From IMG/VR virus record IMGVR_UViG_648028025_000017: 57,405 nt of DNA. The stretch is one strand, 5' to 3'. This DNA is from a virus (lineage: Duplodnaviria; Heunggongvirae; Uroviricota; Caudoviricetes). Made by a program: the position numbers and the translations under genes. A model generated the notes under the pieces. The model saw nothing but the letters and a program-made list of their open reading frames with translations, did no database searches and was not told the origin of the DNA. Below are positions 2,546-57,405 of this stretch, one piece after another (position 1 is the first letter of the stretch; every line of letters begins with the position of its first letter).

Positions 2546-2615
2546 ATCAAAATGTGTTTTACTGATTTTTTTTAAACATACCAGATCAAAGTAATCATTT
2601 CAATACATAGGTCTT

Positions 2616-4739: not shown

Positions 4740-4827
4740 TTCATTGCTCCAGAAGAATGATATGATGCAACCATGATGTGATTGCATACCGAAATGGTAC
4801 TATTGAGTATTTATCCAGTAGGTTACG

Positions 4828-39642: not shown

Positions 39643-39954
39643 ATGGAGATGATTATGGCCTGTTCAACATTCAACCCTTTAACGTTACAGAAATACCAGC
39701 CAGACCCTGAAGATTTATGCTCACTGTGTGGCGGAAATCATGGTAAAGCTGCCATGATCGAATGTAAGGACAAAATCCACATATGCCTTAATTGCGTTGA
39801 TGTCCTCGTTGATATCAAAAATGAAAGAGAAGATAAAAAGCGTAGCGAGGCTATTCGCGCCTTAGATTCATGGATGCGAGATGGGTATAGTGCTGCGCAA
39901 ATTTATGACTTAGCCATTTCAAAAGGCGAAATACCAGGTGTGCGAATCGAATAA
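39643..39954 (+). CDS. Hypothetical cysteine-containing protein
   Basis: 103 aa; CSLCGG...CLNC. Confidence 0.5.
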   Translation: MEMIMACSTFNPLTLQKYQPDPEDLCSLCGGNHGKAAMIECKDKIHICLNCVDVLVDIKNEREDKKRSEAIRALDSWMRDGYSAAQIYDLAISKGEIPGVRIE

Positions 39955-39974
39955 GAAGCGCACTCAAGCATCTT

Positions 39975-40157
39975 TTGGGGAAATCACAAATGCACTTCCG
40001 AGTCACAGGTGAATTGAATGGAGAACCATTCAACAGAGTTATCGAAGCAGAGGACATCAACGACTGCTATGACCACTGGATGATATGGGCGCAGATAGCA
40101 CATGCAGACGTAACCAATATTCGAATTGAAGAACTGAAAGAACACCAAGCCGCCTGA
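39975..40157 (+). CDS. Small hypothetical protein
   Basis: 60-aa ORF, last gene before terminator. Confidence 0.4.
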   Translation: MGKSQMHFRVTGELNGEPFNRVIEAEDINDCYDHWMIWAQIAHADVTNIRIEELKEHQAA

Positions 40158-40170
40158 TGGCGGTTTTTTA
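40150..40170 (+). terminator. Intrinsic terminator at end of early-left operon
   Basis: CCGCC-TGAT-GGCGG hairpin + TTTTTT. Confidence 0.7.
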
Positions 40171-40178
40171 TTGCCTGA

Positions 40179-40195
40179 TTTGCAGGTTCGATTCC
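40179..40195 (+). other. att-like fragment: tRNA T-arm-like 17-mer (TTTGCAGGTTCGATTCC)
   Basis: Matches T-arm segment of tRNA-Arg (argW) as I recall it; diverges after GATTCC. Confidence 0.5.
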
Positions 40196-40214
40196 CTATT
40201 CGGAGATAGCACTC

Positions 40215-40415
40215 ATGCAACACGAACTACAACCTGATTCACTGGTTGATTTGAAATTCATCATGGCTGATACTGGCTTTGGTAAAACCTTCATCTACGA
40301 CCGGATTAAGTCCGGCGACCTGCCTAAAGCCAAAGTTATCCACGGTCGAGCAAGATGGTTATATCGTGACCATTGTGAATTCAAAAATAAGCTCTTAAGC
40401 CGCGCTAATGGGTAA
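40215..40415 (+). CDS. xis: AlpA-family excisionase / transcriptional regulator (Xis-like)
   Basis: 66 aa; LVDLKFIMADTGFGKTFIYDRIKSGDLPKAKVIHGRARWL fits AlpA pattern. Confidence 0.7.
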   Translation: MQHELQPDSLVDLKFIMADTGFGKTFIYDRIKSGDLPKAKVIHGRARWLYRDHCEFKNKLLSRANG

Positions 40416-40483
40416 AATAGCGGGTAAAATATTTCTCACATCTAAAAAATACCATTCTAATCAATCCCCTGCCACTCTAAGTA

Positions 40484-40503
40484 GATGTCTGCAGGGGACA
40501 CCA
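40484..40503 (+). other. att core-like fragment: tRNA 3'-acceptor end (CTGCAGGGGACACCA)
   Basis: 15-nt match to 3' end of tRNA-Arg (argW) from memory, including CCA; 176 bp upstream of the second integrase gene. Confidence 0.55.
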
Positions 40504-40678
40504 TGCACACCTCTCCTGAAATCTACCATACCCCACAAAAAGCCTTTATAATCAGCACATACCCTTACTTATGTTACTCAAATAGTCGCCTTAATTCTCC
40601 TCAGGGGAACGTAAATCAAGTCACATTTGGGGGCCTATTTAGGGGCACATCTTGGTCAATCTATTGCGAGGCCCCCAG

Positions 40679-41869
40679 ATGCCACTGACAGCTCGACAAG
40701 TTGAAACAGCCAAACCCAAAGATAAAATTTATAAGATTGCCGATGGTGGTGGGCTCTACCTTCAGGTCAATCCTAACGGCTCAAAGTACTGGCGAATGAA
40801 GTACCACTATGCGGGGAAGGAAAAGAAACTATCATTTGGCACCTATCCAACTATTACATTGGCTGAAGCTCGCAAACGTCGGGATGAAGCCAAGAAAATA
40901 CATGCCGATGGTAAAGATCCCGGTGAAGTCAAGAAAGCTGAAAATCTTGAGAAAAACCTTTCCGAAGGAAGAACTTTTGCCGCAATCGCCACCGAGTGGT
41001 ACAACGCAAAAGTTTCAGGCTGGTCTGCCAGCTACGCTGATTATGTCGACAGAGCATTCAAAAATAATGTGTTTCCCTACATTGGAAACAGACCCATTAG
41101 TGAAATCGAACCTCTTGAACTTCTCGCAGTTCTTCAGCGTATCGAAAGCCGAGGAGCCTGCGAGCTAGCTAATAAAGTTCGCCAACGATGTGGTGAAGTG
41201 TTTCGGTATGCCATTGTTACAGGTCGGGCACGATACAATCCAGCTTCTGATCTGGTTATAGCAATGAAAAGCTATAAGCGAACACATTACCCTTTCCTGC
41301 TTCCTCCTGAACTACCAGAGTTTTTATACAAACTCGAAAACTAAACCGGCAGTATTGTAACCCGTGAAGCTACAAAATTGTTGATGCTCACAGGGCTGAG
41401 AACAGTAGAATTACGTATGGGGGAATGGTGTGAGATCGATTTTACCCAAAAGATATGGGAAGTTCCTCCGACCCGGATGAAAATGAGGAAGGAGCATATC
41501 GTCCCTCTGTCAGATCAGGCAATCCAGTCTCTGCAAATCCTCAAAGAACTGACTGGAAGATACAGATACATCTTTGCCGGAAGAAATGATGTTAACAGGC
41601 CTATCAGCGATGCAAGCGTCAATATGGTTTTGAAGAAGATTGGCTATGACAAAAAAGCTACCGGGCATGGATTTCGTCATACAATGAGTACTGTTCTACA
41701 CGAGCAAGGATTCAATAGTGCATGGATTGAAATGCAACTTGCACATACGGACAAAAACAGCATTCGTGGTACATACAACCATGCTCGTTACCTTGAAGGA
41801 AGACGAGAAATGATGCAATGGTACGCTGACTACCTTGATGCTCTTCGAAAAGAGTCACCAGCTATATAA
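40679..41869 (+). pseudogene. Second P4-type tyrosine integrase interrupted by an in-frame TAA (41342-41344)
   Basis: N-part ends ...FLYKLEN*, next codon in same frame continues TGSIVTREATKLLMLTGLRTVELR...HGFRH...Y; aligns collinearly with the integrase at 1-1158. Confidence 0.8.
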
Positions 41870-42537
41870 TCGCTTGATTTTAAAGGCTGACTTAACGATA
41901 TCCCCCTGATAGTCATTTATCAGTTATCTAATTATTAAGTCAGCCATAATCCCCTAAGTATCATTCCTTAATCAGATTCAGCACCTTGTAATACGACCGG
42001 TTAATTTAGAAAGAGACGATAGATAAACGCTTATGATGAAATACTAAGAAATTACTTCAGGCTCTATTAACTGGAGCTGTAATAGACAATAATTTAAATA
42101 ACGCAATAGTTATATTTATATCTTAATATAAATTTCCACTGTATTTAACGTCCAGGGAGCCATCTTGAAAGGATAAAAATTCACATTATCACCATAAAAT
42201 CACAACGACACCAAAACACATTTCACAACAACACCCTTGCAATAAACCTGTTTTTAACAAAAAATCAAAGACTGAAAAGAGTTTTGATTCAGAAAACCAC
42301 ATGAGACATGCTTAATATTTTTCAGTTTATCTAAAGGACGCGTTCATCTTTATTACAAAAATATAAGTACACTGTACTTATTAAACATCCAAAAATCACA
42401 CCAGTTAATATTTCTTGTATTACTGTAATTTCTGGAAAAATTTCTTCAAAAAAAATATAGCATACATATCTTTATATGCTATAAAAGATAAGGCAGATTT
42501 ATAACATACTTGCCTCAATAGAACTATCTAAGGGTTT

Positions 42538-42565
42538 GCCTCCACATATAGTGGAGGCTTTTTTT
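42538..42565 (+). terminator. Orphan intrinsic terminator-like hairpin in ORF-free AT-rich spacer
   Basis: GCCTCCAC-ATATA-GTGGAGGC followed by TTTTTTT. Confidence 0.6.
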
Positions 42566-43134
42566 ACCCAATAACAATATTATTCTGACACTTTATTCCT
42601 GTAATCAACAGCAAAAGTATCAAACCAGATGATAATTATTTTCATATTGAGTTTTATTATTCTTTTATATTGTCAATTCTAATCATAATTTATAATAAAT
42701 TTTTAATTATTATATTTGCAAAACACAATAATAATAAATTTCTCATTTTTAATTGCAAGTAATATACCTATAACATTTCAAGAATAAACTTTCACAGGTG
42801 ATTATGACCAATGATATTAACGCCGAACCAAAACACCTACAAAGTAGTAACCAATAATAGGCATGTGACATTACTTAACACTGGAATTAAATATCATCAC
42901 GCAATGTAAATATTTATAAATTAACCAGATTACATTGACCATTTTGTTCAGTTTTATAATTATTCCAATATAATGATATTCCAGTGTAAGTAGTTCAGGT
43001 TAGTTCATTTGAATTTTATAAGTAGACATGACGAGAAGAAATATGCGTTACTTTTTTATCATTTCTGATCTTATTATCTATAAGTCGATCAAAGAAAGAT
43101 TGATTACTATGAAATTTGATTCATGGAGTGACAC

Positions 43135-43256
43135 ATGACAAAGGGGAATATATCTGAAAGAGACTTTGATATCCTGATCAAGCTATCAGGAATACATAGC
43201 GAGAAGGCAATTCTTGCTTTGAAAAAATACTATGTCGATGGGGTCATCAGGAAAAT
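43135..43256 (+). pseudogene. 5' part of a small ORF interrupted by IS3-family insertion
   Basis: ATG with GGAG RBS, MTKGNISERDFDILIKLSGIHSEKAILALKKYYVDGVIRK, then IS inverted repeat. Confidence 0.35.
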
Positions 43257-43286
43257 TGATCCTACCCACGTAATGTGGACACGGCC

Positions 43287-44130
43287 CTAAGCGAGATTAT
43301 GGTTTTCAAATTGTTCCGGGCTGAGACCGCCACAGGCACTGTGACGACGCCAGCGATTGTAATCACACTCGATATAATTAAACACCGTTGCCCGCATTAT
43401 TTCCCGGCTGCTAAAGCGTTCCCCGTGGATACATTCCACCTTCAGCGAATGAAAGAAGCTTTCCACACAGGCATTGTCATAACAGTAGCCTTTCGCACTC
43501 ATACTGCCACGCAGGTTGTGTCGCTTCAGCAGCGCCTGATAATCCCCTGAACAGTATTGACCACCACGGTCCGTATGAACAATGACGCTTTCCGGGCGTC
43601 TTCTCCGCCACAACGCCATTTGTAGTGCATCACAGGCCAGTTGTGCTGTCATTCGCGGTGACATCGACCAGCCAATGACGGCGCGTGACCACAGGTCGAT
43701 GACTACTGCGAGATACAACCAGCCCTCATCGGTACGCAAGTACGTGATGTCACCCGCCCACTTCTGGTTCGGGCCTCTGGCGCTGAAGTCCTGCTCCAGC
43801 AGATTCTCCAATACGGGCAGGCCATGTGCACGGTAGCTGACCGGGCTGAACTTTCGCCCGCAGCCCCTGACGACGCAGGCTGGCGGCAATGGTTTTAATA
43901 TTGAACTCCGGCAGTTCGTCAGCAAGGCGGGGAGCACCGTATCGCTGCTTTGCCTCAAAGAATGCCTTATGGACAGCGGCATCGCAGGTGAGCCGAAACT
44001 GTTGGCGAAGGCTCATCTGGTGACGACGCCTGAGCCAGACATACCAGCCGCTGCGGGCAACCCGAAGTACACGACACATCGCTTTGATGCAGAACTCTGC
44101 CCGATGATTTTCGATGAAGACATACTTCAT
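43287..44130 (-). pseudogene. IS3-family transposase OrfB, split by a frameshift
   Basis: N-part ([13 protein letters not shown]...LRRQGLRAK) and C-part ([15 protein letters not shown]...DDE region) lie in different frames. Confidence 0.75.
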
Positions 44131-44426
44131 TTCAGGCGATTCGCGAAGTATGTCGCGGCCTTTTGGAGGATGGCCAGTTCCTCAGCCTGCTCCGCCAGTT
44201 GTCGTTTAAGGCGGACATTTTCAGCGGCCAGTTCGCTTTCGCGCTCTGACGAACTCATTTGTTGCTGCTGTTTACTGCGCCAGGCATAAAGCTGAGATTC
44301 ATAAAGGCTGAGTTCACGGGCTGCGGCGGCCACACCGATGCGTTCAGCGAGTTTCAGGGCTTCGTTACGAAATTCAGGCGAATGTTGTTCACGGGGCTTC
44401 TTGCTGATTGATACTGGTTTTGTCAT
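44127..44426 (-). CDS. IS3-family transposase OrfA
   Basis: [50 protein letters not shown] matches recalled IS3 OrfA. Confidence 0.9.
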
Positions 44427-46366
44427 GAGTCACCTCTGGTTGAGAGTTTACTCACTTAGTCCTGTGTCCACTATTGGTGGGTAAGATCAGATCAACGAAG
44501 AGAAGATCAGCATATATGCACTAGAAACCAAAATATCGAGCCAAGGCAATTGTTAACTTGCGTGGACAGATGCTCGTTATGTATTAAAATCCCATTGCTT
44601 AGTCACGAAGATAATGATCGTATGGCTTCCTTAAGGGCTGGTGAGACACGTTGATTAAGTGCTTCATTAGCCCAGTCGGATTGCACGGGTATTCTACGCA
44701 ATATCACTGTGTTTAAAGCAGCAAACAAACGATGCAGTAAATGTATAGAACCGGTCGCGATAGCTGTATCCACCCACTGGTCCGCATAGAGCCATGGGGC
44801 TGAAAATAAATCAGCCATCGCCTGAGTAGCAACTTCAATAGACGCTTTTTCTAGGCAAAGAACATCACCCTGATCGCCAAAATTATGCTCAAAGTAAGGC
44901 AATCCTTCTATATTCGTGCGAATTAGAGGAAATGGGCAGCGCCCAATGCTCAGTAAAATATAGGCGTCTATACGCTGATCATCGTCACCCACCTCTGCTG
45001 ACGGCAGTTTCGCTAGTTGCCCGAGTATCATCCAACTGGTTGATTTAGAAATGACCTTTGGGATTTGATCCTCTAAATTCACCAGAACACTCTTTGCATC
45101 ATCCCCGTGTTTAGAAATCCACGCTAATCCATCCTCAATCTTTAGATTGACTTGTTGGTTGTCTGGCATGGCTAAAGTAAACAATCCGTTTTTTATAGGT
45201 TCTTTATATGGCTCAATGCTGAGAAGGCCCTGAATAATTCCAAAGCTGAAATATCTCTCTTTAGCTGCCATACGGCGTATGGCTTGAGCACCGATCATAT
45301 CTCCAAGATAAGTGGCGTCTAGCCGTTCGCCAAGCCAAGCCCCGGCGTCTTGAGGGTCTTGTTCTGCCCGTAAAACCAGTTCATCACAAACAGCATCCGA
45401 CAGTTCCAGAAGGTAAGCTGCGGGAACTGTCGGCACCACAACATCTTCCCATCCTGAAAGGCGAAAAATACGAACTGCCCCCATATGTTTTAACTCATTC
45501 ACTACACCACGAGCTTCGTCAGAAAGTGCGTCATACCGCACGACAAATCCATTCGCTTTAGCAAACATTAATTCTACTGAGTGGGAGTTTGTGTCAGCTA
45601 GTGCGCAGCGTGCAAGAACCCGATAATAACGAAGAAGATCATACTGACTCTCATAGCTCTTTTGCGCAGCATCTATAAGTTCCATACCGGGTGATGGAGG
45701 AAGATAGGCGATAAGATCCGTTTTCTGGTATTGATGATTGCGCACAATGTCATCATAAATAGTGCGAAGAACCCAAGGCGAGCGGTAGTCATCGGCGTAT
45801 TCTGCTCCCTGTTGAAAAACTATCCGCTGGTCCGAGAGAATCTGTTGCGCCAGCTTAAATTCATCTAGGGACATAGGCGATGTTTTAAATACCTTCGACC
45901 GGCTACCAATTGCAGACGGAGTTCGTCCGTTTGGATTTTTCAGTAACGCGTTGGCATGATAGGTCGTCAGAACAACCACCAGCCTGTTGCCAAAACGTAT
46001 ACCCGCAAGTTCCTCAAGATCAGTAGCCATTTGGGAGCCTGGTTCAACGTCGTCGATAGCAAGCATAAGCGATGGACCTTCAGTGCAGTTAGACATTCGT
46101 CTTAACCAGTTACGTGCATCATTTGAGGTTAAATTCCATTCAAATTCAGCTGCAAAAAGATTGGCCAGAGCCTGAAATAGTCCTGGTCCGGAACCTCGTA
46201 ACATCAGGACAGCCAAAAGATCGCTACTTTCCGTTTTTAGCGAAATTTCACGGAGGCAACTGCTTTTTCCGCTTTGTGCATCACCCTCAATGATAGTGAA
46301 AGCTGTACCCATTGAACCGCCCCGGGAATCCTGGAGACCAAACTCCCTGAGAAAGAGGTAAACAGG

Positions 46367-46693
46367 ATGACTAAAAATACACGTTTTTCCCCCGAGGTCC
46401 GTCAACGGGCAGTTCGTATGGTTCTGGAAAGTCAGGGCGAATATGACTCACAATGGGCGGCAATTTGTTCCATTGCCCCAAAGATTGGCTGTACACCAGA
46501 GACTCTGCGTGTGTGGGTTCGTCAGCATGAGCGGGATACCGGGAGTGGTGATGGTGGACTCACCACCGCTGAACGTCAGCGTCTGAAAGAGCTGGAACGT
46601 GAAAATCGTGAACTGCGCCGCAGTAACGATATCCTTCGCCAGGCTTCCGCTTATTTTGCGAAGGCGGAGTTCGACCGCCTCTGGAAAAAATAA
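46367..46693 (+). CDS. IS629-like transposase OrfA
   Basis: 108 aa HTH protein [26 protein letters not shown]. Confidence 0.9.
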
Positions 46694-47580
46694 TGCCGCT
46701 GCTGGATAAGCTGCGTGAGCAGTACGGGGTCGGACCGGTATGCAGTGAACTGCATATTGCCCCGTCAACGTATTACCACTGTCAGCAACAGCGACATCAT
46801 CCTGATAAACGCAGTGCCCGTGCTCAGCGCGATGACTGGCTGAAGAGAGAGATACAGCGCGTATACGATGAAAATCATCAGGTGTACGGTGTGCGTAAAG
46901 TCTGGCGCCAGTTGTTACGCGAAGGTATCAGGGTGGCCAGATGTACAGTGGCGCGCCTCATGGCGGTTATGGGACTTGCCGGTGTTCTCCGGGGTAAAAA
47001 GGTCCGTACTACCGTCAGCCGGAAAGCCGTTTCCGCAGGCGACCGCGTAAACCGTCAGTTCGTGGCAGAACGTCCTGACCAGCTGTGGGTGGCTGATTTT
47101 ACTTACGTCAGCACATGGCAGGGCTTCGTCTGTGTGGCGTTCATCATTGATGTGTTTGCCGGATGTATCGTGGGGTGGCGAGTCTCATCGTCTATGGAAA
47201 CGACATTCGTGCTGGATGCACTGGAGCAGGCGTTGTGGGCCCGTCGGCCGTCCGGCACAGTCCATCACAGTGATAAAGGTTCTCAGTATGTATCACTGGC
47301 CTATACGGAGCGACTAAAAGAAGCAAAACTGCTGGCATCAACAGGGAGTACAGGTGACTCGTATGACAACGCGATGGCGGAGAGCATCAATGGTCTTTAC
47401 AAAGCGGAGGTAATACACCGTAAGAGCTGGAAAAACCGTGCAGAAGTGGAACTGGCCACACTCACGTGGGTGGACTGGTATAACAATCGACGATTGCTGG
47501 GAAGGCTGGGTCATATCCCTCCGGCAGAAGCAGAAAAAGCTTATTATGCTTCCATCAGAAACGATGATCTGGCAGCCTGA
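46693..47580 (+). CDS. IS629-like transposase OrfB (DDE integrase core)
   Basis: 295 aa; HSDKGSQY ... DNAMAESINGLYKAE motifs. Confidence 0.9.
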   Translation: MPLLDKLREQYGVGPVCSELHIAPSTYYHCQQQRHHPDKRSARAQRDDWLKREIQRVYDENHQVYGVRKVWRQLLREGIRVARCTVARLMAVMGLAGVLRGKKVRTTVSRKAVSAGDRVNRQFVAERPDQLWVADFTYVSTWQGFVCVAFIIDVFAGCIVGWRVSSSMETTFVLDALEQALWARRPSGTVHHSDKGSQYVSLAYTERLKEAKLLASTGSTGDSYDNAMAESINGLYKAEVIHRKSWKNRAEVELATLTWVDWYNNRRLLGRLGHIPPAEAEKAYYASIRNDDLAA

Positions 47581-48919
47581 GTTCACAGATAAAACACTCT
47601 CCAGGAAAACCGGGGCGGTTCACATCACAGCAGATTCAATTACAAGAGACGTGATTTTGCGAGGAAAAAGTAGGTTGTTGGCAAATGGATGTTCTGAATG
47701 CCCAGGCTGATCAGTTATATCAATCAGCAGCCGGGCTGTTTCTTCTCGCACAGCTGGCACCCAAGCATTAGTTTCTCGCCCCATCAAGGCTTCAATAGCC
47801 CAGCGCATGTCAGCCGCCGCCAACTTTGCAGAATTGGCGAGCATCTTGTTTACCGCTGCCGAGGCATCCTGTCCACCCGACCACTGTTGTCCATTACTTG
47901 AGTCATAAACGCGCGTATCTTTACCGTTCGTAACTACAACGAGAGGCGGACGTGGTGTTAACTGGTTAGCGTAGCTTTGAGCCTGTTCATAATCATCATG
48001 GGTCAGTGTCAGGTCTTCACGTTTCAGTTCAATAACCGCAAGTGGTCTCTCCCGATGAAAGATCAAAACATCCGCTCGCCCGTATTTTTTCCAGTGTGCG
48101 GCGCTATCTATTTTGTAAGTTCCATGGCCTAGCCGAACGGTAAAATGGCGCTGTTCGATAAGATCTTCGCGAGGAATGTTAGGAAATGCTATGTTTAGTG
48201 CTGAAGTAAGCCGGCTTTCTAGCTCGGCTTCAGTTCGAACGAGTGGAGAGCCCGTTTTTGATTGCATACTTTTCATGACAAAGTATCCTCAGATATTAGT
48301 CATTGGCTAAGTTTTTATTTCACTTACTACCTTTCCAGATTAATGCGAAGACGCATAGCATTGGATTAACGGATGTGAAATGGATTATTGACAAGCAAAG
48401 TAACTTTTTCCGCATAACTATCAATTGATTAGCTGAAGAAAGGGAATATGATTTAGTTCACTCAGGTTTCTCCAGCACGATGTGCAGATGCTAAAGCCAC
48501 GATTAATTCTAAAGCAGATTAATATAACCCTGAAACAGGCAGAGCTGGAAACGCCTGTATCGGAAGTATGCCGCATGACCGCCCCCGATAACTCACACCG
48601 AATGCCAATAGGAATGTCAGCCCCTCGCTCATAGCAGACCTTCGGGCCTGGCAGCTTAGTGCCAAGAACACTCCCCAGTGGCCTATCGGCAAGTGTAAGC
48701 GTACGAATATCGCCTCCGTGCTACACAGTAGACGACTACATTTTCGACGCATGAGCAAATCGTGGCTTTAGTTGTCTAAAACCAGTGCTTCAACACTTTT
48801 TTTTCACCAAACAACGCATCGTAGAAGCACTAGTTGGATTCCACAGGCTTACGTAAACAAATAGCGCTAACGGCTAAGCTGGTCCATTAGACGCTCAATC
48901 ATCCTCGCAAGAGGTATAG

Positions 48920-49936
48920 TTACTCGATGCCCAGAACAAATGACATTAACAAATCTAGCTTTATTTTCATGTCTGCAGTTGCCGAAGCCGCATTAACCTG
49001 CGGCAAGGCAAGCCATCTGTTTACGGCATCGGAGTTGAATCTCTGCTGCCTTAGGAACGAAGATACCGACGTTTCCCAGGAAAAGATTTCACCCCCACAA
49101 AGTTCGACGGGCTGCTGAGAGCAGGCTCGCTGAATAGTCATTCCCAAACCGACGTAGCGGAGAAGCTCACGTCGCACATTCTCATCTTTTTGCATGACTG
49201 GTGCATCCAGTTTCGGTTTCGGTCCAAAGTACACTCCGGTAGTACCTGGTTGTAATGTCGGGTCACTGGAAAAATAAACCGGAACTCCCATCAATTTAAA
49301 TGCCGCTGTCAAAATTTCATAACTAATGTCTGATCGACTCCAACGGCCCATGTGGGGTGGTACTTTTGGCAAACCGACCAGATCATCGCCACGGCTTACA
49401 ATCGATACCCCCTCAACTGGCACGGATGGTTGCATTCTGAATACAGCGTCAGAATCGATTTCCCAGCCAGCTTCGCTTAACAATCGCAAAAAATTACCAG
49501 CAGCCACGCACGATGATTCACTCCACTCAACACAACCGATGCGCAGCTTGTCCCGCTGACCGAACTGTCCTGTTCGAAATAATTCGAGGTATCTGTCGCG
49601 ATTGGAACTATTAACGGCATATGCATCAATCACAGTAGGCGGTACAGGTTTACTTGCAGATTCAGGATTTTGTTGAAGCAAATCTGGGCTTATGAAAAAC
49701 ACTATAGCGAAGATCGCCACTGCGCCAGATGCTCTTAACCACCCATTAAATTTTACTTCAAGGAAACCAGGCAGAACTGCACCAATACATCCGGCAGCCA
49801 GAACCAGAACTATTCGGTAAACTATATATTGATAAGGTGTGGGATTGGGGGTTGTGATAGTAGTAATGAGTATGGCAACTATCGCCACAACCGCAAAACC
49901 ATACCTAATGAACTTGTCTGTCCTTACACTGCTCAT
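48920..49936 (-). CDS. Membrane protein of unknown function (N-terminal TM helices + about 240-aa soluble domain)
   Basis: 338 aa; hydrophobic segments AVVAIVAILITTI, IVLVLAAGCIGAVLPGFL, AVAIFAIVFFI. Confidence 0.6.
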   Translation of the reverse strand: MSSVRTDKFIRYGFAVVAIVAILITTITTPNPTPYQYIVYRIVLVLAAGCIGAVLPGFLEVKFNGWLRASGAVAIFAIVFFISPDLLQQNPESASKPVPPTVIDAYAVNSSNRDRYLELFRTGQFGQRDKLRIGCVEWSESSCVAAGNFLRLLSEAGWEIDSDAVFRMQPSVPVEGVSIVSRGDDLVGLPKVPPHMGRWSRSDISYEILTAAFKLMGVPVYFSSDPTLQPGTTGVYFGPKPKLDAPVMQKDENVRRELLRYVGLGMTIQRACSQQPVELCGGEIFSWETSVSSFLRQQRFNSDAVNRWLALPQVNAASATADMKIKLDLLMSFVLGIE

Positions 49937-50408
49937 TTTAATTTTGACACCTGAATCAAGTCCATAAGTCGAAAATCCCGCATTAAACTGCTCCCCAATG
50001 ATTAATACAGCTTTATACGCGTAATGAGGCTATTGGCGTTGGTGATGAGTGTAACTGTCCATTCCTCGCTCAGAGCAACCTTCTGCTCCAAGAGTCAGTC
50101 TACAGTGTGCAAAAAACAGACGTTGATCACAATATCGAGTTAATCATTCGGCCGTTTATCACTCCCATTGAAAAATTTCTCAGTATCCAATATACCAATG
50201 TTGAGGGCTTCCCTCTTACATCTCAAAAGGATAACTATCATGGGTCTTAAACCTGGTCCAAAACCAATTGCTAAATCGACAGGAAAACCAGATCAACGCC
50301 GACGAGATAATAAAGATACTCCTGGCAACACTCCGGGACTAAAGCCAAGTAAGTCGTAACCGGCTCATTTAAACCGTCTGGTCTGTTTCCTCCGGCTCTA
50401 CAAAAATA

Positions 50409-51086
50409 ATGTCCATCATTTTTAATGGACACTATCGTATGAAACACCGGACCTGGATCACTGAAGCTTTACGTCTTCACTTTGAAGAACATTTACCCCG
50501 GGTTGTGGCCGGGCGTCGCCTGGGTGTACCAAAATCAACAGTTTGTAGTATGTTCGTGCGCTTTCGGAGAGCTGGCCTTTCGTGGCCTTTGCCCGCAGGC
50601 ATGTCGGAGCAGGAACTTGATGCCTGCCTTTACGGACAATTTTCCACGGTACCAGTCGTACGTCCTGAAAGCACCGTTATATCCGAAGCCCCCGTGGTAA
50701 AAAAACGTCCCCGGCGGCCCAACTTCCCTTATGAGTTTAAAATCGCCTTAGTGGAGCAGTCACTGCAGCCCGGAGCCTGTGTGGCGCAGATCGCCCGGGA
50801 AAACGGAATCAACGATAACCTGCTCTTCAACTGGCGCCATCAATACCGGAAAGGTGGCCTGCTGCCTTCCGGAAAAAATATGCCGGCACTGCTTCCCGTG
50901 ACGTTAACGCCGGAGCCGGATAATAAAATCCCGGCCCCCGCACAGGAACCAGAGCAGATAAATACACCGTCCGACAGTCTGTGTTGTGAGCTGGTTCTGC
51001 CGGCCGGAACTCTCAGGCTTAAAGGTAAACTGACGCCGGCGTTATTACAGACACTTATCCGCGAAATAAAAGGGAGCAGCCACTGA
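50409..51086 (+). CDS. IS66-family accessory protein TnpA (start uncertain)
   Basis: HTH segments incl. IARENGINDNLLFNWRHQYRKGG. Confidence 0.7.
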   Translation: MSIIFNGHYRMKHRTWITEALRLHFEEHLPRVVAGRRLGVPKSTVCSMFVRFRRAGLSWPLPAGMSEQELDACLYGQFSTVPVVRPESTVISEAPVVKKRPRRPNFPYEFKIALVEQSLQPGACVAQIARENGINDNLLFNWRHQYRKGGLLPSGKNMPALLPVTLTPEPDNKIPAPAQEPEQINTPSDSLCCELVLPAGTLRLKGKLTPALLQTLIREIKGSSH

Positions 51087-51433
51087 TGATATCTCTCCCT
51101 GCAGGTTCGCGTATCTGGCTGGTTGCAGGTATCACCGATATGCGAAATGGCTTTAACGGCCTGGCATCAAAAGTTCAGAACGTCCTGAAGGATGACCCGT
51201 TCTCCGGACACCTGTTCATCTTCCGCGGACGCCGGGGTGACCAGATAAAAGTGTTGTGGGCTGACAGTGACGGACTGTGCCTCTTCACCAAACGCCTGGA
51301 GCGGGGCCGCTTCGTCTGGCCAGTCACCCGTGACGGCAAGGTGCACCTTACTCCGGCTCAGTTATCCATGCTTCTTGAAGGTATCAACTGGAAGCACCCG
51401 AAACGAACGGAACGCGCTGGAATCCGCATATAA
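51086..51433 (+). CDS. IS66-family TnpB
   Basis: 115 aa; RIWLVAGITDMRNGFNGLA typical of IS66 Orf2. Confidence 0.85.
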   Translation: MISLPAGSRIWLVAGITDMRNGFNGLASKVQNVLKDDPFSGHLFIFRGRRGDQIKVLWADSDGLCLFTKRLERGRFVWPVTRDGKVHLTPAQLSMLLEGINWKHPKRTERAGIRI

Positions 51434-51452
51434 CCCGTTGTAAAGTGAGGAT

Positions 51453-53024
51453 ATGGACACCTCACTTGCTCATGAGAACGCCCGCCTGCGGGCACTGTTG
51501 CAGACGCAACAGGACACCATCCGCCAGATGGCTGAATACAACCGCCTGCTCTCACAGCGGGTGGCGGCTTATGCTTCCGAAATCAACCGGCTGAAGGCGC
51601 TGGTTGCGAAACTGCAACGTATGCAGTTCGGTAAAAGCTCAGAAAAACTTCGTGCAAAAACCGAACGGCAGATACAGGAAGCACAGGAGCGAATCAGCGC
51701 ACTTCAGGAAGAAATGGCGGAAACGCTGGGTGAGCAATATGACCCGGTACTGCCATCCGCCCTGCGCCAGTCTTCAGCCCGTAAACCGTTACCGGCCTCA
51801 CTTCCCCGTGAAACCCGGGTTATCCGGCCGGAAGAGGAATGCTGTCCTGCCTGTGGTGGTGAACTCAGTTCTCTGGGATGTGATGTGTCAGAGCAACTGG
51901 AGCTTATCAGCAGCGCCTTTAAGGTTATCGAAACACAACGTCCGAAACAGGCCTGTTGCCGGTGCGACCATATCGTGCAGGCACCAGTACCTTCAAAACC
52001 CATTGCACGCAGTTATGCCGGAGCGGGGCTTCTGGCCCATGTTGTCACCGGGAAATATGCAGACCATCTGCCGTTATACCGCCAGTCAGAAATATACCGT
52101 CGTCAGGGAGTGGAGCTGAGCCGTGCCACACTGGGGCGCTGGACAGGTGCTGTTGCTGAACTGCTGGAGCCGCTGTATGACGTCCTGCGCCAGTATGTGC
52201 TGATGCCCGGTAAAGTCCATGCTGATGATATCCCCGTCCCGGTCCAGGAGCCGGGCAGCGGTAAAACCCGGACAGCCCGGCTGTGGGTCTACGTCCGTGA
52301 TGACCGTAACGCCGGTTCACAGATGCCCCCGGCGGTCTGGTTCGCGTACAGTCCGGACCGGAAAGGTATCCATCCACAAAATCACCTGGCCGGTTACAGC
52401 GGTGTGCTTCAGGCCGATGCTTACGGTGGTTACCGGGCGTTATACGAATCCGGCAGAATAACGGAAGCCGCGTGTATGGCTCATGCCCGGAGAAAAATCC
52501 ACGATGTGCATGCAAGAGCGCCCACCTACATCACCACGGAAGCCCTGCAGCGTATCGGTGAACTGTATGCCATCGAGGCAGAGGTCCGGGGCTGTTCAGC
52601 AGAACAGCGTCTGGCGGCAAGAAAAGCCAGAGCCGCGCCACTGATGCAGTCACTGTATGACTGGATACAGCAACAGATGAAAACACTGTCGCGTCACTCA
52701 GATACGGCAAAAGCGTTCGCATACCTGCTGAAACAGTGGGATGCACTGAACGTGTACTGCAGTAATGGCTGGGTGGAAATCGACAACAACATCGCAGAGA
52801 ACGCCTTACGGGGAGTGGCCGTAGGCCGGAAAAACTGGATGTTCGCGGGTTCCGACAGCGGTGGTGAACATGCGGCGGTGTTGTACTCGCTGATCGGCAC
52901 ATGCCGTCTGAACAATGTGGAGCCAGAAAAGTGGCTGCGTTACGTCATTGAACATATCCAGGACTGGCCGGCAAACCGGGTACGCGATCTGTTGCCCTGG
53001 AAAGTTGATCTGAGCTCTCAGTAA
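51453..53024 (+). CDS. IS66-family transposase TnpC
   Basis: 523 aa; leucine-zipper N-terminus, CPACGG zinc motif, DDE-like core. Confidence 0.85.
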
Positions 53025-53054
53025 ATATCAATACGGTTCTGACGAGTCGCTTAC

Positions 53055-54193
53055 GGTTATCCGGACTGTACGTGAAAAGCATGCCTGTACTCAGTGCGAT
53101 GCCATCGTGCAGGCCCCCGCGCCTTCACGGCCCATCGAGCGGGGTATCGCAGGACCGGGGCTGCTGGCCCGCGTGCTGATCTCAAAGTATGCAGAGCACA
53201 CCCCGCTGTACCGCCAGTCTGAAATGTACGGCCGCCAGGGCGTGGAGCTGAGTCGTTCACTGCTGTCGGGCTGGGTGGATGCATGCTGCCGGCTACTGTC
53301 ACCGCTGGAAGAAGCGCTTCAGGACTATGTGCTGACTGACGGTAAGCTCCATGCTGATGACACGCCTGTCCCGGTGCTGTTGCCAGGCAATAAGAAAACG
53401 AAGACCGGGCGGTTATGGACCTACGTTCGTGACGACCGTAACGCCGGGTCAACGCTGGCGCCGGCGGTGTTGTTCGCTTACAGCCCGGACAGAAAAGGCA
53501 TCCATCCGCAGACCCATCTTGCGGGGTTCAGTGGTGTACTGCAGGCGGATGCATACGCCGGGTTCAACGAGCTGTACCGGGATGGCCGGATAACGGAAGC
53601 CGCCTGTTGGGCTCACGCCCGCCGTAAAATCCACGATGTGCACGTTCGCACCCCGTCAGCCCTGACGGAGGAAGCGCTGAAACGGATCGGCGAACTGTAC
53701 GCCATCGAGGCAGAGATAAGGGGAATGACGGCGGAGCAGCGCCTTGCCGAACGTCAGTTGAAAACGAAACCGCTGCTGAAATCCCTGGAAAGCTGGCTGC
53801 GTGAAAAGATGAAAACCCTGTCGCGACACTCAGAACTGGCGAAAGCGTTCGCATACGCCCTGAACCAGTGGCCGGCGCTGACGTACTATGCAGATGATGG
53901 CTGGGCTGAGGCGGACAATAACATCGCTGAAAATGCGTTGCGGATGGTCAGTCTGGGCCGCAAAAACTACCTGTTCTTCGGTTCGGATCATGGAGGAGAG
54001 CGGGGAGCGCTGCTGTACAGCCTGATCGGGACGTGCAAACTGAACGGAGTGGAGCCAGAAAGCTACCTCCGCTATGTCCTTGACGTCATAGCCGACTGGC
54101 CGATAAACCGGGTCGGCGAACTGCTCCCCTGGCGCGTAGCACTGCCGACTGAATAACACATCCCCGTCAATACGGTTCTTGCTGCACGCTTAC
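53055..54193 (+). mobile_element. 5'-truncated remnant of a second, divergent IS66-family element
   Basis: Begins mid-tnpC directly after the first copy's right end; own right end ...CGCTTAC at 54187-54193. Confidence 0.7.
53107..54156 (+). pseudogene. Truncated IS66-family tnpC (lacks N-terminal third)
   Basis: Collinear with C-terminal two-thirds of the TnpC at 51453-53024. Confidence 0.8.
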
Positions 54194-54596
54194 CAGTAAC
54201 TTCAGCTACCGTCGTTTCATCTCTCCCACGAACCGGAGCCGCAACTTGTTGCATCACAGGGCTGACAAGTGAACTGAAATCCGCACCTTAATATTCTGAC
54301 TGGCTGCGTACATTCATTGCATGAAGCGGCCGGAGCGGCTGAGCTGAAGGTCCGTTGTGAGCGAGAAGCGGAAGTCCGAAATGGTGCTTATTACTATAGG
54401 GGAGTGATCGTCTATCGGGGTGGGGTCAGTCTAATTAACGACCCTGGAGACGTCCAGATTATCCTTAGCGATTCAAACCTTTTTACGAGACCCAAAGATT
54501 TGATACTCAAAATCTCAGACATAAACCATCTAAACATACGGCTTACTATCATGATGATAGGGGAACGGCTAGCAAAGGGTCAAATTATCTTGATAA

Positions 54597-55331
54597 CTAA
54601 TAAAAGTTCTTTACATCCATAAAATCCATGATGTATTTATCTAATCCTTTGCGATTGAAAAAACCGAAACTTTCAAAGTCTTTTATTATTTTCCAATCAC
54701 TAAATACGTATGCCAAACATACCAAATGAAGAAATTTCACAGGCATAGTATAATTTGCTATTTCGTAATATCTTTCTTTGTGGTTTTCTGGGCAAGATTC
54801 ATTTGTGAATTTAAATAGAATATAAAAACTACGAACCGCAGAAAAGAGAGCCATAGAGGATTCATTATCAAAAATAGAAAATTGTTTGCATAATTCTTCT
54901 GCATTTTTTGACTTACATGAGTTTATCATGTAACTCTCTAAATAGGTTACCGCATCTGAGGCTGAGTAGTTTTTTTTATTTCTACCAGTTATTCTGAGGG
55001 CATCAAACTCTCTTCTAGATACTTCAGCGAGGCTATAAAACGATGATTCAAAAGAGCGCAAGTCATCAATTTCTTTTTGTCTTTCTGAAACCTCATGCAT
55101 GTGCAAATTTTGTTTAATAATGCTGATGTTAGCCTCTTTTTGTAAGTTTATTGATTTAATTAACATAATCATTGTAAAAAATGTCAAAATGGGGTTGGTT
55201 ACGCCGCCAACGAAATCACCAAATGTTCCCCATTCAGACTTATCAATTGGAAAACCATTTAACGGATCGAAATTGAAGAAATAAATCAACCATGTAACTG
55301 ATATAACTAAAAAGGCAACATACTTTATCAT
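54597..55331 (-). CDS. Hypothetical 2-TM membrane protein, downstream gene of AT-rich two-gene operon
   Basis: 244 aa; TM segments VAFLVISVTWLIYFF and VGGVTNPILTFFTMIMLI; ATG 1 nt after upstream stop. Confidence 0.65.
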   Translation of the reverse strand: MIKYVAFLVISVTWLIYFFNFDPLNGFPIDKSEWGTFGDFVGGVTNPILTFFTMIMLIKSINLQKEANISIIKQNLHMHEVSERQKEIDDLRSFESSFYSLAEVSRREFDALRITGRNKKNYSASDAVTYLESYMINSCKSKNAEELCKQFSIFDNESSMALFSAVRSFYILFKFTNESCPENHKERYYEIANYTMPVKFLHLVCLAYVFSDWKIIKDFESFGFFNRKGLDKYIMDFMDVKNFY

Positions 55332-55332
55332 A

Positions 55333-56151
55333 TCAATCCGTTATAACTCGGTGAAGACTATATTTTTTAATGACACCAAGAAAGTTTCTGATTGATGTCA
55401 CCTCTAGCCGTACACGAGTAAAATCACCATTATCTGTGTTGACGTCTAAGTTTCTAGATAGCCAGCGTTTTTGATCTGCTGGAAAATCTCTCCAAAGATA
55501 TGAAGGTTCAAAACTTACAGACTCAGAATCTTCCTCAAGAATGAGCCTTCCCGTCCCCGTTAGCCGATTAAATCTTGTAATAGAAGCTTCAATAATGATC
55601 CTTTCATCATCGGCACGTTCAACAATTAGATTTTCAAGGGTCGTGTGATCATACCGAGCAAGATTTGTCCTTCTCCGTTTCAGCTCAACAGTATAATTTT
55701 GTTCTTCTATGGGCTTATGAAGCTTCAATAGTGGGCCATAAAGCCTCTTCATTAATGAACTATAATCTGACTCAAGTTCTTTAACAATTCTAGCAGCCCT
55801 TTTATATGTGAAATTATAAGGTGTTAATAATGGTCTTGTAAGATAATAAGACATAACATCTAGAAATGCCCCCTCTCCGATTGCGCCATAGTTTCTACGT
55901 TGTTCCTCACCTGTGATCTTGAGCATGAAACGTTGTCTAAACGACCCTTCATAACTGGTACGAAAAGATGCGGTTATGCCTTCGATTGATGGGATTTTAG
56001 TAACTACTTCGCGATTTAGAATCGTATTAGTGAGGACTGTAACTATCTCTGACGTGCCTTCAAGTGCTTTTGACCCATAGTAAAAATCAAGCTCTGTGAA
56101 TCTTTCTTCTCCATCACTTACTACCATTTCCATGGGAACATGAATTTCCAT
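55333..56151 (-). CDS. Hypothetical soluble protein, upstream gene of AT-rich two-gene operon
   Basis: 272-aa ORF, AT-rich, no recognisable motif. Confidence 0.65.
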   Translation of the reverse strand: MEIHVPMEMVVSDGEERFTELDFYYGSKALEGTSEIVTVLTNTILNREVVTKIPSIEGITASFRTSYEGSFRQRFMLKITGEEQRRNYGAIGEGAFLDVMSYYLTRPLLTPYNFTYKRAARIVKELESDYSSLMKRLYGPLLKLHKPIEEQNYTVELKRRRTNLARYDHTTLENLIVERADDERIIIEASITRFNRLTGTGRLILEEDSESVSFEPSYLWRDFPADQKRWLSRNLDVNTDNGDFTRVRLEVTSIRNFLGVIKKYSLHRVITD

Positions 56152-56493
56152 TCTCTAATTCCAAATAAAAACCATGGGTTTAATATGTCCTAATTGATTT
56201 GGTTTTGGCAACTATTTTTGATTGTTTTTCAAGAATAATTCGAAAGCTATTAATTAATGGCTGGAACTAATAGGTTCCAGTTTTCAACTAATCCAGTGAC
56301 CTGCTCCCCGCTGATCAACTCAGACTGTTGTTAGCAACTTACGCTCCTGGTACGGAGCGGGCATTGATTACCCGCTCCGTTCACGTTCCGCCTGGAAGTT
56401 CTGCAATTTATGTCTATCGGCTATTGAAAACCTTCCGGTCCTTCCCAATATCGAAACTGGCACCTTTGCCAGATAACAAAGAGATACGGGAAC

Positions 56494-56814
56494 ATGATGT
56501 ACGTCTACAGAAGACCTCCAAATCAGCTCCTTTCCATTTCTCGTTTGAAGCAGTATTTGTTGCATGAGGTGGAATCAAATCAACACATCATGAGACAGTG
56601 GGAATCTGCCAGAACGGCACTTCGAAACATCCGTAACAAAGGGCATGATCCAGACACCGCCTCCTGGGTTTCACTTAAAAATGATCCCCGAGTCTTCACG
56701 AATGGCGCAGATGAAAAGCATGGGTTCATTTTTGTTGACGACGACGATCAATCAGTCCTTGTTGTGGCCTCCTGGGTGATAGATGAGTACGGTTCCCCCC
56801 TCACTACATATTAA
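56494..56814 (+). CDS. Hypothetical protein (start uncertain)
   Basis: 106-aa ORF with acidic patch FIFVDDDDQ; no clear RBS. Confidence 0.4.
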   Translation: MMYVYRRPPNQLLSISRLKQYLLHEVESNQHIMRQWESARTALRNIRNKGHDPDTASWVSLKNDPRVFTNGADEKHGFIFVDDDDQSVLVVASWVIDEYGSPLTTY

Positions 56815-56931
56815 TCCCTGTACCTGGACAGAAGAGTTTTCTGTCCACAACTACCAATAGCTTTACATAATGTGTGCATCTAACTTCAATAAGTTACTTC
56901 ATTACCAATAATGTCTAAAAAGGAAACGCGC

Positions 56932-57405
56932 ATGGATATTGATACGCTGGGTGGCCAGGAACTTCGGGATAAGATTTTTGCTGGGCTCAAAATATACGAG
57001 GGTAAACCCTTCATCGAACGGTTCGGTCTGTTTATGGGCAAGGCACAGTTGCTAGAGTTTGGCCTAAAAAAAATTCTTGTTTCTTTTCCGGGATACAACC
57101 TTGATGAAGAAAAATTAGAGAGGCTGACATTAGGCCAGACCCGCGTTGAGCTTAAAAAGCTGGGGCTGCGCACGGACTATAATGCTTACCTGAAGTCATT
57201 CAAAGATCAGCGCAATACGATGGCTCACGAGTTCCTTGCTAATTTTGCGGTCACACAGCAGCTTTTAGACGGAGCTGCACTTATTCGCACATTTGAGCGT
57301 GAGTTAGACCATGCCTGTTACGCGGTGGAGCAGTTGATCATCCTTTTCGACTTCATCAACGGTGCCGGTGACGTAACCGCCTGGCTTGAGCCTACTGCCC
57401 CCTGA
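56932..57405 (+). CDS. Hypothetical protein
   Basis: Start MDIDTLGG with AAGGAA RBS; ends with TGA at window end. Confidence 0.55.
   Translation: MDIDTLGGQELRDKIFAGLKIYEGKPFIERFGLFMGKAQLLEFGLKKILVSFPGYNLDEEKLERLTLGQTRVELKKLGLRTDYNAYLKSFKDQRNTMAHEFLANFAVTQQLLDGAALIRTFERELDHACYAVEQLIILFDFINGAGDVTAWLEPTAP

What the first reader, a model, noticed from the sequence alone, without database searches (positions are those of the whole stretch)
40170..40510. Two tRNA 3'-end-like att fragments flank the AlpA/Xis gene at the junction of prophage and island
TTTGCAGGTTCGATTCC (40,179-40,195) and CTGCAGGGGACACCA (40,489-40,503) together reconstruct the T-arm and acceptor 3' end of a tRNA, which I believe from memory is tRNA-Arg (argW). 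They are separated by about 290 bp containing only the AlpA-like gene. The second fragment sits 176 bp upstream of the second integrase, the usual spacing for P4-type integrases. This indicates tandem accretion at one tRNA att site: the prophage next to the intact tRNA (outside the window) and an older island distal to it. The split arrangement suggests a hybrid att or a further nested event.
Basis: partly seen in the sequence, partly recalled or inferred. Interest (0 to 1): 0.55.

Follow-up and report, generated by a model that had tools for sequence, protein, structure and literature searches.

The report
Known phage attR beside argW island
The region is the well-studied right attachment site (TorI excisionase gene plus 16-base core) of a P22-like prophage sitting in the argW tRNA gene next to an older island. 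Only the second tRNA-like fragment is a real junction, so the finding is largely ordinary.

Summary
Both fragments are real, exact and unique in the window. Together they tile the last 31 nt of argW (tRNA-Arg CCU).

Fragment 2 (40489-40504, CTGCAGGGGACACCAT) is the published 16-nt core of the IntS/TorI recombination module of KplE1, Sf6 and HK620. It is the prophage attR. The "AlpA/Xis" gene is torI, 66/66 identical to PDB 1Z4H, and it belongs to the prophage.

Tandem accretion is confirmed:
- 210 E. coli genomes carry the exact prophage-free junction, argW followed directly by the island integrase.
- A third copy of the core closes the island about 25 kb to the right, beyond the window.

Fragment 1 (40180-40195) is not an att junction.
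- It lies inside free phage genomes (Sf6, HK620, Kapi1), 19 nt upstream of the torI ATG.
- It is outside the 135-bp attR that recombines in vitro.
- No genome out of 5,426 shows recombination at it.
- The CUS-3 GenBank record labels it "att core", apparently in error.

The one unexplained point is that its inner 13 nt (CAGGTTCGATTCC) are conserved upstream of torI across about ten diverged lineages, which suggests an uncharacterised cis element.

Verdict: already known, low interest.

The parts
1..1158 (+). intS, the prophage integrase (P4-family tyrosine recombinase). It sits at the left end of the prophage. attL and argW lie just upstream of the window.
   Evidence: Pfam architecture Arm-DNA-bind_3 + Phage_int_M + Phage_integrase. 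RefSeq annotation 'prophage integrase IntS' in E2865, with argW ending 162 nt upstream.
40100..40177 (+). End of the early-left 'ea' region. It is shared with lambda (29098-29175) and many lambdoid and Stx phages, and it ends in an intrinsic terminator (40147-40166).
   Evidence: Phage BLAST, query 1-78 at 97-99% to lambda, HK630, H19J and others. Terminator scan.
40180..40195 (+). Fragment 1: a 16-nt copy of the argW T-arm (TTGCAGGTTCGATTCC). The deeply conserved part is CAGGTTCGATTCC, 40183-40195. It is phage DNA lying 6 nt before the torI Shine-Dalgarno (GGAG, 40202-40205), not an att junction.
   Evidence: Exact and unique in the window. Present in Sf6 attP, K-12 KplE1, and the S88 CUS-3-like prophage. 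Conserved in 10 diverged lineages. Excluded from the published in-vitro attR.
40215..40415 (+). torI, the recombination directionality factor (excisionase) of the prophage.
   Evidence: 66/66 identical to PDB 1Z4H 'Tor inhibition protein'. RefSeq annotation torI.
40392..40504 (+). Phage-derived part of attR (P arm plus core). It corresponds to the published 135-bp attR substrate. It includes two GGGTAAAATA repeats (40410-40419, 40422-40431), which carry the TAAA motif of IntS arm-type sites.
   Evidence: Primer attR-IHF2 maps at 40392-40411 (PMC3509656). Repeats found. TAAA motif of arm-type sites from PMC2951348 section 8. Assigning these two repeats as arm-type sites is inference.
40489..40504 (+). 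Fragment 2: the 16-nt att core CTGCAGGGGACACCAT (attR core, the K-12 'pawZ' equivalent). It is the displaced original 3' end of argW, and also the left boundary repeat of the island. Inferred layout: C half-site GATGTC 40484-40489, 7-nt overlap TGCAGGG 40490-40496, C' GACACC 40497-40502.
   Evidence: Published core sequence (PMC2951348). Phage homology stops at 40504. K-12 annotation pawZ. The half-site and overlap layout is my inference from the inverted repeat, conserved in other genera.
40408..40551 (+). hkaB / Sf6 gene-17-like small ORF that reads across the att core. Its C-terminus is changed by integration. Coding status is doubtful.
   Evidence: ORF list. Sf6 annotation. Translations compared.
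40505..57405 (.). argW-associated genomic island, continuing beyond the window. Its right-end repeat, ATTCCTGCAGGGGACACCA, lies about 25 kb from 40489 in E2865.
   Evidence: Same sequence directly follows argW in 210 prophage-free genomes. Island annotation and third repeat. Collinear with E2865 except for a 1.3-kb insertion.
40679..41869 (+). Island integrase (P4 family, 48% identical to IntS). It is a pseudogene here through a single C-to-A change at 41344 (TAC to TAA).
   Evidence: RefSeq flags 'internal stop'.

Best explanation
Window 1-40504 is a P22-like (Lederbergvirus-type) prophage integrated into the 3' end of argW by the IntS/TorI site-specific recombination module. This is the module characterised in KplE1 (CPS-53), HK620 and Sf6.

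In that module the integrase gene and the excisionase gene flank attP in the phage circle (torI - P arm - 16-nt core - P' arm - intS). After integration they therefore end up at opposite ends of the prophage. Region 40170-40510 is the right end: a terminator, torI, the P arm, and the core CTGCAGGGGACACCAT (fragment 2). That core is the original 3' end of argW, displaced by the insertion.

The DNA to the right is an older argW island with its own P4-family integrase, now a pseudogene. The island is bounded on its far side by a third copy of the same core. The array is therefore argW | prophage | core | island | core.

On induction, IntS, TorI and IHF would recombine the attL core with the core at 40489-40504 and release the prophage alone. 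This step is inferred from the published biochemistry, not shown here.

Fragment 1 is not a recombination junction. It is a T-arm-like box carried by the phage just upstream of the torI ribosome-binding site. Its conservation suggests a cis-acting role. My best guess is a protein-binding site, because it contains the TorI pentamer GTTCG and the attB-type half-site CGATTCC. That role is unproven.
For: - Core identity: fragment 2 equals the published 16-nt core (PMC2951348) and the K-12 pseudogene pawZ.
- Gene identity: TorI is 100% identical to PDB 1Z4H. IntS has the expected domain architecture.
- Boundary: homology to Sf6, HK620, Kapi1 and 16 other phages runs from 40100 to exactly 40504. A four-way alignment of the window, K-12 attR, Sf6 attP and S88 attR diverges immediately after ...ACACCAT.
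- attL: argW plus the P' arm plus intS are seen in the near-identical genome E2865.
- Empty site: the synthetic argW|island junction is found at 100% identity and coverage in 210 genomes. The prophage|island junction is found in 63 genomes.
- Island: a third repeat closes it, and its Int is 48% identical to IntS.
- Fragment 1 is in free phage genomes and outside the 135-bp attR that works in vitro (PMC3509656). No argW-frag1-torI deletion junction occurs in 5,426 genomes.
- Box conservation: GTTCGATT is invariant in 10 of 10 box-bearing lineages, against a mean identity of 0.52 at torI third-codon positions.
Against: - attL and the third repeat are outside the window. They were read from a near-identical genome (E2865), not from the source itself.
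- Excision competence of this particular prophage was not tested.
- No function for fragment 1 could be demonstrated. It is absent from about half of the TorI-family lineages, including isolated phages (Klebsiella Chronis, Erwinia vB_EhrS_49), so it is dispensable for the module.
- No sigma-70 promoter, no consistent RNA fold and no Rfam family was found.
Confidence: 0.9

Rival explanations
1. Fragments 1 and 2 are two att scars made in this chromosome by a hybrid att site or a further nested integration, and the Xis gene sits between two elements.
For: The fragments tile the argW 3' end exactly, with a 1-nt overlap, as if 293 bp had been inserted into a tRNA end.
Against: The same frag1-torI-core arrangement is present in free phage genomes (Sf6, HK620, Kapi1), in K-12 KplE1, and in the S88 prophage, which has a different right-hand neighbour, dsdC. 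A related form occurs in phages of Erwinia and Salmonella. It therefore predates this integration and is part of the phage.
Confidence: 0.03
2. Fragment 1 is the true att core of a CUS-3-type integration system, as annotated in GenBank CP000711. On this view torI and fragment 2 belong to a separate remnant to the right of the prophage.
For: The CUS-3 record marks TTGCAGGTTCGATTCC as 'attL core' and 'attR core' and ends there.
Against: CUS-3 Int is IntS-type, and its attL continues with the standard core and P' arm. In S88 the CUS-3-like prophage runs on through torI to CTGCAGGGGACACCAT and then dsdC. Panis et al. list CUS-3 as sharing the KplE1 module (PMC2951348). A prophage ending at fragment 1 would have no RDF. 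No genome shows the product expected from recombination at fragment 1. The CUS-3 paper itself could not be read.
Confidence: 0.03
3. Fragment 1 is functionally inert. It is a relic of an ancestral attP with a longer (31 nt or more) tRNA identity block into which torI and the P arm were inserted, or it is simply part of a mosaic 'boundary sequence' that spreads by recombination among lambdoid phages.
For: It abuts the core exactly in tRNA coordinates. The Sf6 record annotates the segment as 'bsq2; boundary sequence'. Nearly the same 5' UTR precedes RDF alleles that are only 48% identical (IMG/VR L170 versus Citrobacter), and the sequences further upstream are unrelated. About half of the lineages lack it.
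Against: In Edwardsiella, Pantoea, Serratia and Erwinia the nucleotides on both sides of the box have diverged while the 13-nt box stays intact. Erwinia phage Midgardsormr38 has it in two tandem copies. That pattern fits purifying selection better than a decaying relic.
Confidence: 0.35
4. Fragment 1 acts at the RNA level. For example, UUCC of the box pairs with the GGAG Shine-Dalgarno 4-7 nt downstream to damp TorI translation.
For: The box sits at a nearly fixed 4-7 nt from GGAG in 9 of 10 lineages. In Serratia the spacing is 13 nt but the possible stem lengthens to UUCCUG/CAGGAG.
Against: The stem is only 4 bp in most lineages. MFE folds differ between lineages and do not recover it in E. 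coli. There is no Rfam match.
Confidence: 0.1

Closest known systems
KplE1 (CPS-53) prophage attR / torI / pawZ of E. coli K-12 (Panis, Mejean and Ansaldi; PMC2951348, PMC3509656)
   Same: Same target (argW), same 16-nt core, identical TorI protein, and the same P-arm sequence including the GGGTAAAA repeats. The same T-arm-like box lies upstream of torI, and intS and torI are at opposite prophage ends.
   Different: KplE1 is a 10-kb defective remnant followed by dsdC. Here the module belongs to a roughly 40-kb P22-like prophage followed by a genomic island.
attP regions of phages Sf6, HK620 and Kapi1
   Same: 96-97.5% identical over 40100-40504, with the order torI - core - intS. The Kapi1 att site was mapped to the same sequence (PMC8787464).
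   Different: Those are the unrecombined attP. In the window the P' arm and intS are 40 kb away at attL.
CUS-3 prophage record (GenBank CP000711)
   Same: Same integrase type and same argW site. The identical 16-mer TTGCAGGTTCGATTCC was taken as the att repeat, which is the inference the first-stage reader made.
   Different: Evidence here indicates the real right boundary is 309 bp further on, at the standard core. The record therefore appears to omit torI and attR.
Hypervariable argW-dsdCXA island region of E. coli (Moritz and Welch 2006, cited in PMC8787464 and PMC9659370)
   Same: An island with a P4-family integrase directly 3' of argW, with the csc sucrose genes replacing dsdC/dsdX.
   Different: Nothing unusual. 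The integrase in this lineage carries one nonsense mutation.
Lambda xis-int-attP
   Same: A heterobivalent tyrosine integrase plus a small winged-helix RDF plus IHF. The sequence just upstream of the RDF gene (40100-40177) is even homologous to lambda 29098-29175, upstream of xis.
   Different: In lambda, xis and int are adjacent on one side of attP and Xis binds the P arm. Here attP lies between the two genes and the five mapped TorI sites are on the P' (attL) side (PMC2951348 section 8).

Membership tests
IntS/TorI (KplE1-HK620-Sf6) recombination module | 16-nt core CTGCAGGGGACACCAT duplicated at both prophage ends, the left copy being the 3' end of argW | tested here: met
   The right copy is at 40489-40504. 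The left copy was read in the near-identical genome E2865, because attL lies just outside the window. Core sequence from PMC2951348.
IntS/TorI (KplE1-HK620-Sf6) recombination module | TorI-type RDF gene immediately inside attR | tested here: met
   66/66 identity to PDB 1Z4H. The stop codon lies 73 nt before the core.
IntS/TorI (KplE1-HK620-Sf6) recombination module | IntS-type integrase at the opposite (attL) end, same orientation as argW | tested here: met
   Window 1-1158. Pfam architecture. RefSeq name IntS. N-terminus identical to Sf6 and CUS-3 Int.
IntS/TorI (KplE1-HK620-Sf6) recombination module | Arm-type IntS sites (TAAA motif) and TorI sites (GTTCG/GATCG/GTCCG) in the arms | tested here: met
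   Two GGGTAAAATA repeats in the P arm. The five TorI sites map onto the E2865 attL at L005 917-944 and 980-1007, using the coordinates in PMC2951348. Protein binding itself was not tested.
IntS/TorI (KplE1-HK620-Sf6) recombination module | IntS + TorI + IHF-dependent excision at the core | not testable with these tools
   Needs PCR or an in-vitro assay.
att junction (direct repeat created by integration), as applied to fragment 1 | The sequence marks the boundary between element DNA and host DNA, and is absent from or unpaired in the free element | tested here: not met
   Fragment 1 is internal to free phage genomes, with phage DNA on both sides. No recombination product at it in 5,426 genomes.
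tRNA gene or pseudo-tRNA | Cloverleaf detectable by ARAGORN or Rfam | tested here: not met
   No tRNA in the window. No tRNA hit at E<=10 in 40000-40700. Only 16-nt and 15-nt pieces are present.
tRNA-associated genomic island with a P4-family integrase | Integrase directly 3' of the tRNA, and an island bounded by direct repeats of the tRNA 3' end | tested here: met
   Int architecture. argW-int adjacency in 210 genomes. A 19-nt repeat of the argW end at the far side in E2865. The integrase is a pseudogene in the window.

The most novel reading that the evidence does not exclude
The 13-nt T-arm mimic CAGGTTCGATTCC upstream of torI is a functional cis element of the recombination module. It could be a TorI auto-operator, or an attB-like IntS core-type half-site that couples RDF expression to the recombination proteins. 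On this reading it was derived from the target tRNA segment that abuts the crossover core. It would be an uncharacterised regulatory part of a well-studied module, and it has already misled att-site annotation (CUS-3).
Probability: 0.3. Interest if true: 0.4.

Novelty: already known. Interest (0 to 1): 0.18.

Why it matters
There are three practical points.

- Prophage boundaries in this phage family should be set at CTGCAGGGGACACCAT, not at the T-arm-like repeat 309 bp inside. Using the inner repeat cuts off the excisionase gene, which appears to have happened in the CUS-3 record.
- The case illustrates two integrative elements with related integrases stacked on one tRNA core. The inner island is immobilised by a single nonsense mutation.
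- The conserved box upstream of torI is a small, cheap-to-test lead on how RDF expression is controlled in the KplE1/Sf6/HK620 module.

None of this changes current understanding of site-specific recombination.

Tried and rejected
- Fragment 1 as a recombination site. A synthetic argW-frag1-torI deletion junction was searched in 5,426 complete E. coli genomes. None covered it.
- Sigma-70 promoter at the box. The scan found none between the terminator and torI. The TTGC-N5-TTGC resemblance to CII-type sites has the wrong spacing and is confined to the E. coli lineage (my reading).
- Conserved RNA structure in the 5' UTR. MFE folds of 10 lineages disagree, and Rfam gave only sub-threshold sRNA noise.
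- More repeats in the window. There is no further copy of either fragment with up to 3 mismatches. A 2-mismatch hit to the box at 41102-41114 on the minus strand is at chance level.
- Pfam and NCBIfam did not recognise TorI. Identity to PDB 1Z4H settled the assignment.
It returned mostly real phage tRNA genes and only 23 of 121 torI-type hits, adding one new lineage, L170.
- Three papers are not held and could not be read: King et al. 2007 (CUS-3), Moritz and Welch 2006, and Menouni et al. 2013. From memory, the last of these deals with Rho-dependent silencing of torI.

Full report
**Observation.** The window has TTGCAGGTTCGATTCC at 40180-40195 and CTGCAGGGGACACCA at 40489-40503. Each is the only match in the 57-kb window even with three mismatches allowed. 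Exact matches of these lengths are expected about 3e-5 and 1e-4 times by chance. ARAGORN finds no tRNA gene in the window.

The window is E. coli O26-type chromosome. Region 39950-40700 is 100% identical to many O26:H11 genomes. In one of them (E2865), argW, tRNA-Arg(CCU), ends 162 nt upstream of the intS ATG, and that ATG is window position 1. The last 31 nt of argW are TTGCAGGTTCGATTCCTGCAGGGGACACCA, so the two fragments tile it with a one-base overlap.

**What the region is.** The gene between the fragments (40215-40415) encodes a protein 66/66 identical to PDB 1Z4H, the Tor inhibition protein TorI. TorI is the recombination directionality factor of the KplE1 (CPS-53) prophage of K-12. That prophage is bounded by a duplicated 16-nt core, CTGCAGGGGACACCAT, and its module (attL, attR, intS, torI) is shared by HK620, Sf6 and CUS-3 (PMC2951348; PMC3509656). 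Fragment 2 plus T40504 is exactly this core. In K-12 the equivalent piece is annotated as the pseudogene pawZ.

A BLAST of 40100-40520 against phage genomes shows 95-97.5% identity to Kapi1, Sf6, HK620 and others, running through torI and stopping at query position 405, which is window 40504. A four-way alignment of the window, K-12 attR, Sf6 attP and the S88 prophage attR is almost invariant from the T-run of the upstream terminator to ...ACACCAT. It then diverges completely into island, dsdC side, P' arm and dsdC side respectively. The prophage therefore ends at 40504, and torI lies inside it. The Kapi1 study mapped its att site to the same sequence and notes that int and xis end up at opposite ends of the prophage (PMC8787464).

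**Tandem accretion.** Right of 40504 lies a second P4-family integrase gene (40679-41869). It is 48% identical to IntS and has the same domain architecture. I built the junction predicted for a chromosome without the prophage: yfdC-argW...ACCAT followed by window 40505-41100. It occurs at 100% identity and coverage in 210 complete E. coli genomes, and 63 genomes carry the prophage|island junction.

In E2865 the island runs about 24 kb, through IS elements, an Ag43 fragment, antirestriction genes and YeeU. It ends at ATTCCTGCAGGGGACACCA, a 19-nt copy of the argW end, just before the csc genes that replace dsdC/dsdX. The window is collinear with E2865 there except for a 1.3-kb insertion at 46313-47622, so this third repeat lies beyond the window's end.

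The array is therefore argW | prophage | core | island | core. The island integrase is a pseudogene here through a single C-to-A change at 41344 (TAC to TAA), relative to the intact allele in strain AMSCJX02.

**Fragment 1 is not an att junction.**
- It is present at the same place, 19 nt before the torI ATG, in the free phage genomes Sf6 and HK620, in K-12 KplE1, and in the S88 prophage, which has a different right-hand neighbour. It therefore predates this integration.
- The attR substrate that recombines in vitro with IntS, TorI and IHF is 135 bp (PMC3509656). Its primers map to K-12 L240 488-622, and fragment 1 lies 197 nt outside it.
- A synthetic junction expected from recombination between the argW T-arm and fragment 1 was found in none of 5,426 genomes.

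The CUS-3 GenBank record (CP000711) labels this 16-mer 'attL core' and 'attR core' and stops there. However, its attL continues with the standard core, P' arm and an IntS-type integrase. In S88 the CUS-3-like prophage continues through torI to CTGCAGGGGACACCAT and dsdC. I conclude that the record's right boundary is 309 bp short. The CUS-3 paper itself could not be consulted.

**The residual puzzle.** I surveyed TorI-family loci in genomes and phages. A box CAGGTTCGATTCC, usually followed by C, sits 4-7 nt upstream of the torI Shine-Dalgarno in about ten lineages:
- E. coli phages
- Citrobacter
- Serratia fonticola
- two Pantoea
- Edwardsiella
- a MAG
- an IMG/VR contig
- Erwinia phage Midgardsormr38, which has two tandem copies
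- Salmonella phage g341c, whose RDF is only 48% identical to TorI

GTTCGATT is invariant in all ten, while mean pairwise identity at torI third-codon positions is 0.52. Sequence further upstream is unrelated between lineages. About as many lineages lack the box, typically where torI abuts or overlaps the preceding gene (Klebsiella phage Chronis, Erwinia phage 49, Dryocola, Tatumella, Rouxiella, Pantoea wallisii type). The box is therefore dispensable but, where present, apparently under selection.

The box contains the pentamer GTTCG, which defines the five mapped TorI sites of attL (PMC2951348 section 8). Those sites are CAGTTCGC, CAGTCCGC, CAGTTCGT, TGGTTCGC and CAGATCGT on L005. The box also contains CGATTCC. 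By my inference from the inverted repeat GATGTC|TGCAGGG|GACACC around the core, that is the 'B' core-type half-site of attB.

I found no sigma-70 promoter, no consistent RNA fold and no Rfam family. The Sf6 record calls the segment a 'boundary sequence' and a 'possible' promoter. A protein-binding cis element, a weak anti-SD pairing, or a mosaic linker or relic all remain possible.

**Mechanism.**
- Shown here or in the cited papers: the identity of the parts, the boundaries, and the empty site.
- Inferred: on induction, read-through from the early-left operon past the terminator at 40147-40166 expresses torI. TorI bound at attL, IntS on the arm sites (GGGTAAAA type) and core sites, and IHF then recombine the attL core with 40489-40504. 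This releases the prophage and leaves argW directly joined to the island, which is the configuration seen in 210 genomes.
- Joint excision of prophage plus island is unlikely, because the distal repeat lacks the phage P arm and the island integrase is inactivated.

**Comparison and novelty.** This is a member of the IntS/TorI module in every testable respect, placed next to a typical argW island in a region known to be hypervariable (Moritz and Welch 2006, cited in PMC8787464 and PMC9659370). The finding is already known biology. The only mildly new items are the annotation caveat for CUS-3-type records and the conserved T-arm-like box, which has no assigned function. Interest is low (0.18). 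If the box proved to be a functional operator or decoy derived from the target tRNA, it would be a modest addition to a well-studied system.

Noticed in passing
window 41342-41344: The island integrase differs from the intact allele of strain AMSCJX02 by one base over 1,191 nt. C-to-A at 41344 turns Tyr (TAC) into a stop (TAA), so the island was probably immobilised recently.
   Followed up: yes
GenBank CP000711 (L003 1581-1596, L004 1-16) versus E. coli S88 (L010 1670-2000): The CUS-3 record annotates the T-arm 16-mer as att core and ends 309 bp before the standard core, leaving out torI. The CUS-3-like prophage of S88 continues through torI to CTGCAGGGGACACCAT and dsdC.
   Followed up: partly
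L006 1775-1805 (Erwinia phage Midgardsormr38): Two tandem copies of CAGGTTCGATTCCC, 15 nt apart, precede the torI homologue.
   Followed up: no
window 40408-40551: A small ORF (the hkaB / Sf6 gene 17 homologue) starts inside the torI stop region and reads across the att core. Its last ~15 residues are therefore encoded by island DNA here and by the P' arm in the free phage. Probably not a real gene.
   Followed up: partly
window 40100-40177: The stretch just upstream of the torI cassette, including the terminator, is 97-99% identical to lambda 29098-29175 (just upstream of xis) and to many Stx and lambdoid phages. This marks a mosaic joint where different integration modules are attached.
   Followed up: partly
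window 46313-47622: A 1.3-kb insertion relative to strain E2865, containing a 295-aa ORF (46693-47580), interrupts the island gene annotated as HsdR N-terminal domain protein. Probably an IS element.
   Followed up: no
L170 versus L018: Nearly identical 50-nt 5' UTRs (terminator T-run, TTGCCTGGCTTCCAGGTTCGATT..GGAGAT) precede RDF genes whose proteins are only about 48% identical. The recombination joint therefore lies at the start codon.
   Followed up: no
window 1403-4787, minus strand: An acyltransferase gene and a tailspike gene lie next to intS. This is the usual position of O-antigen-modifying genes in P22-like prophages (annotation of E2865).
   Followed up: no
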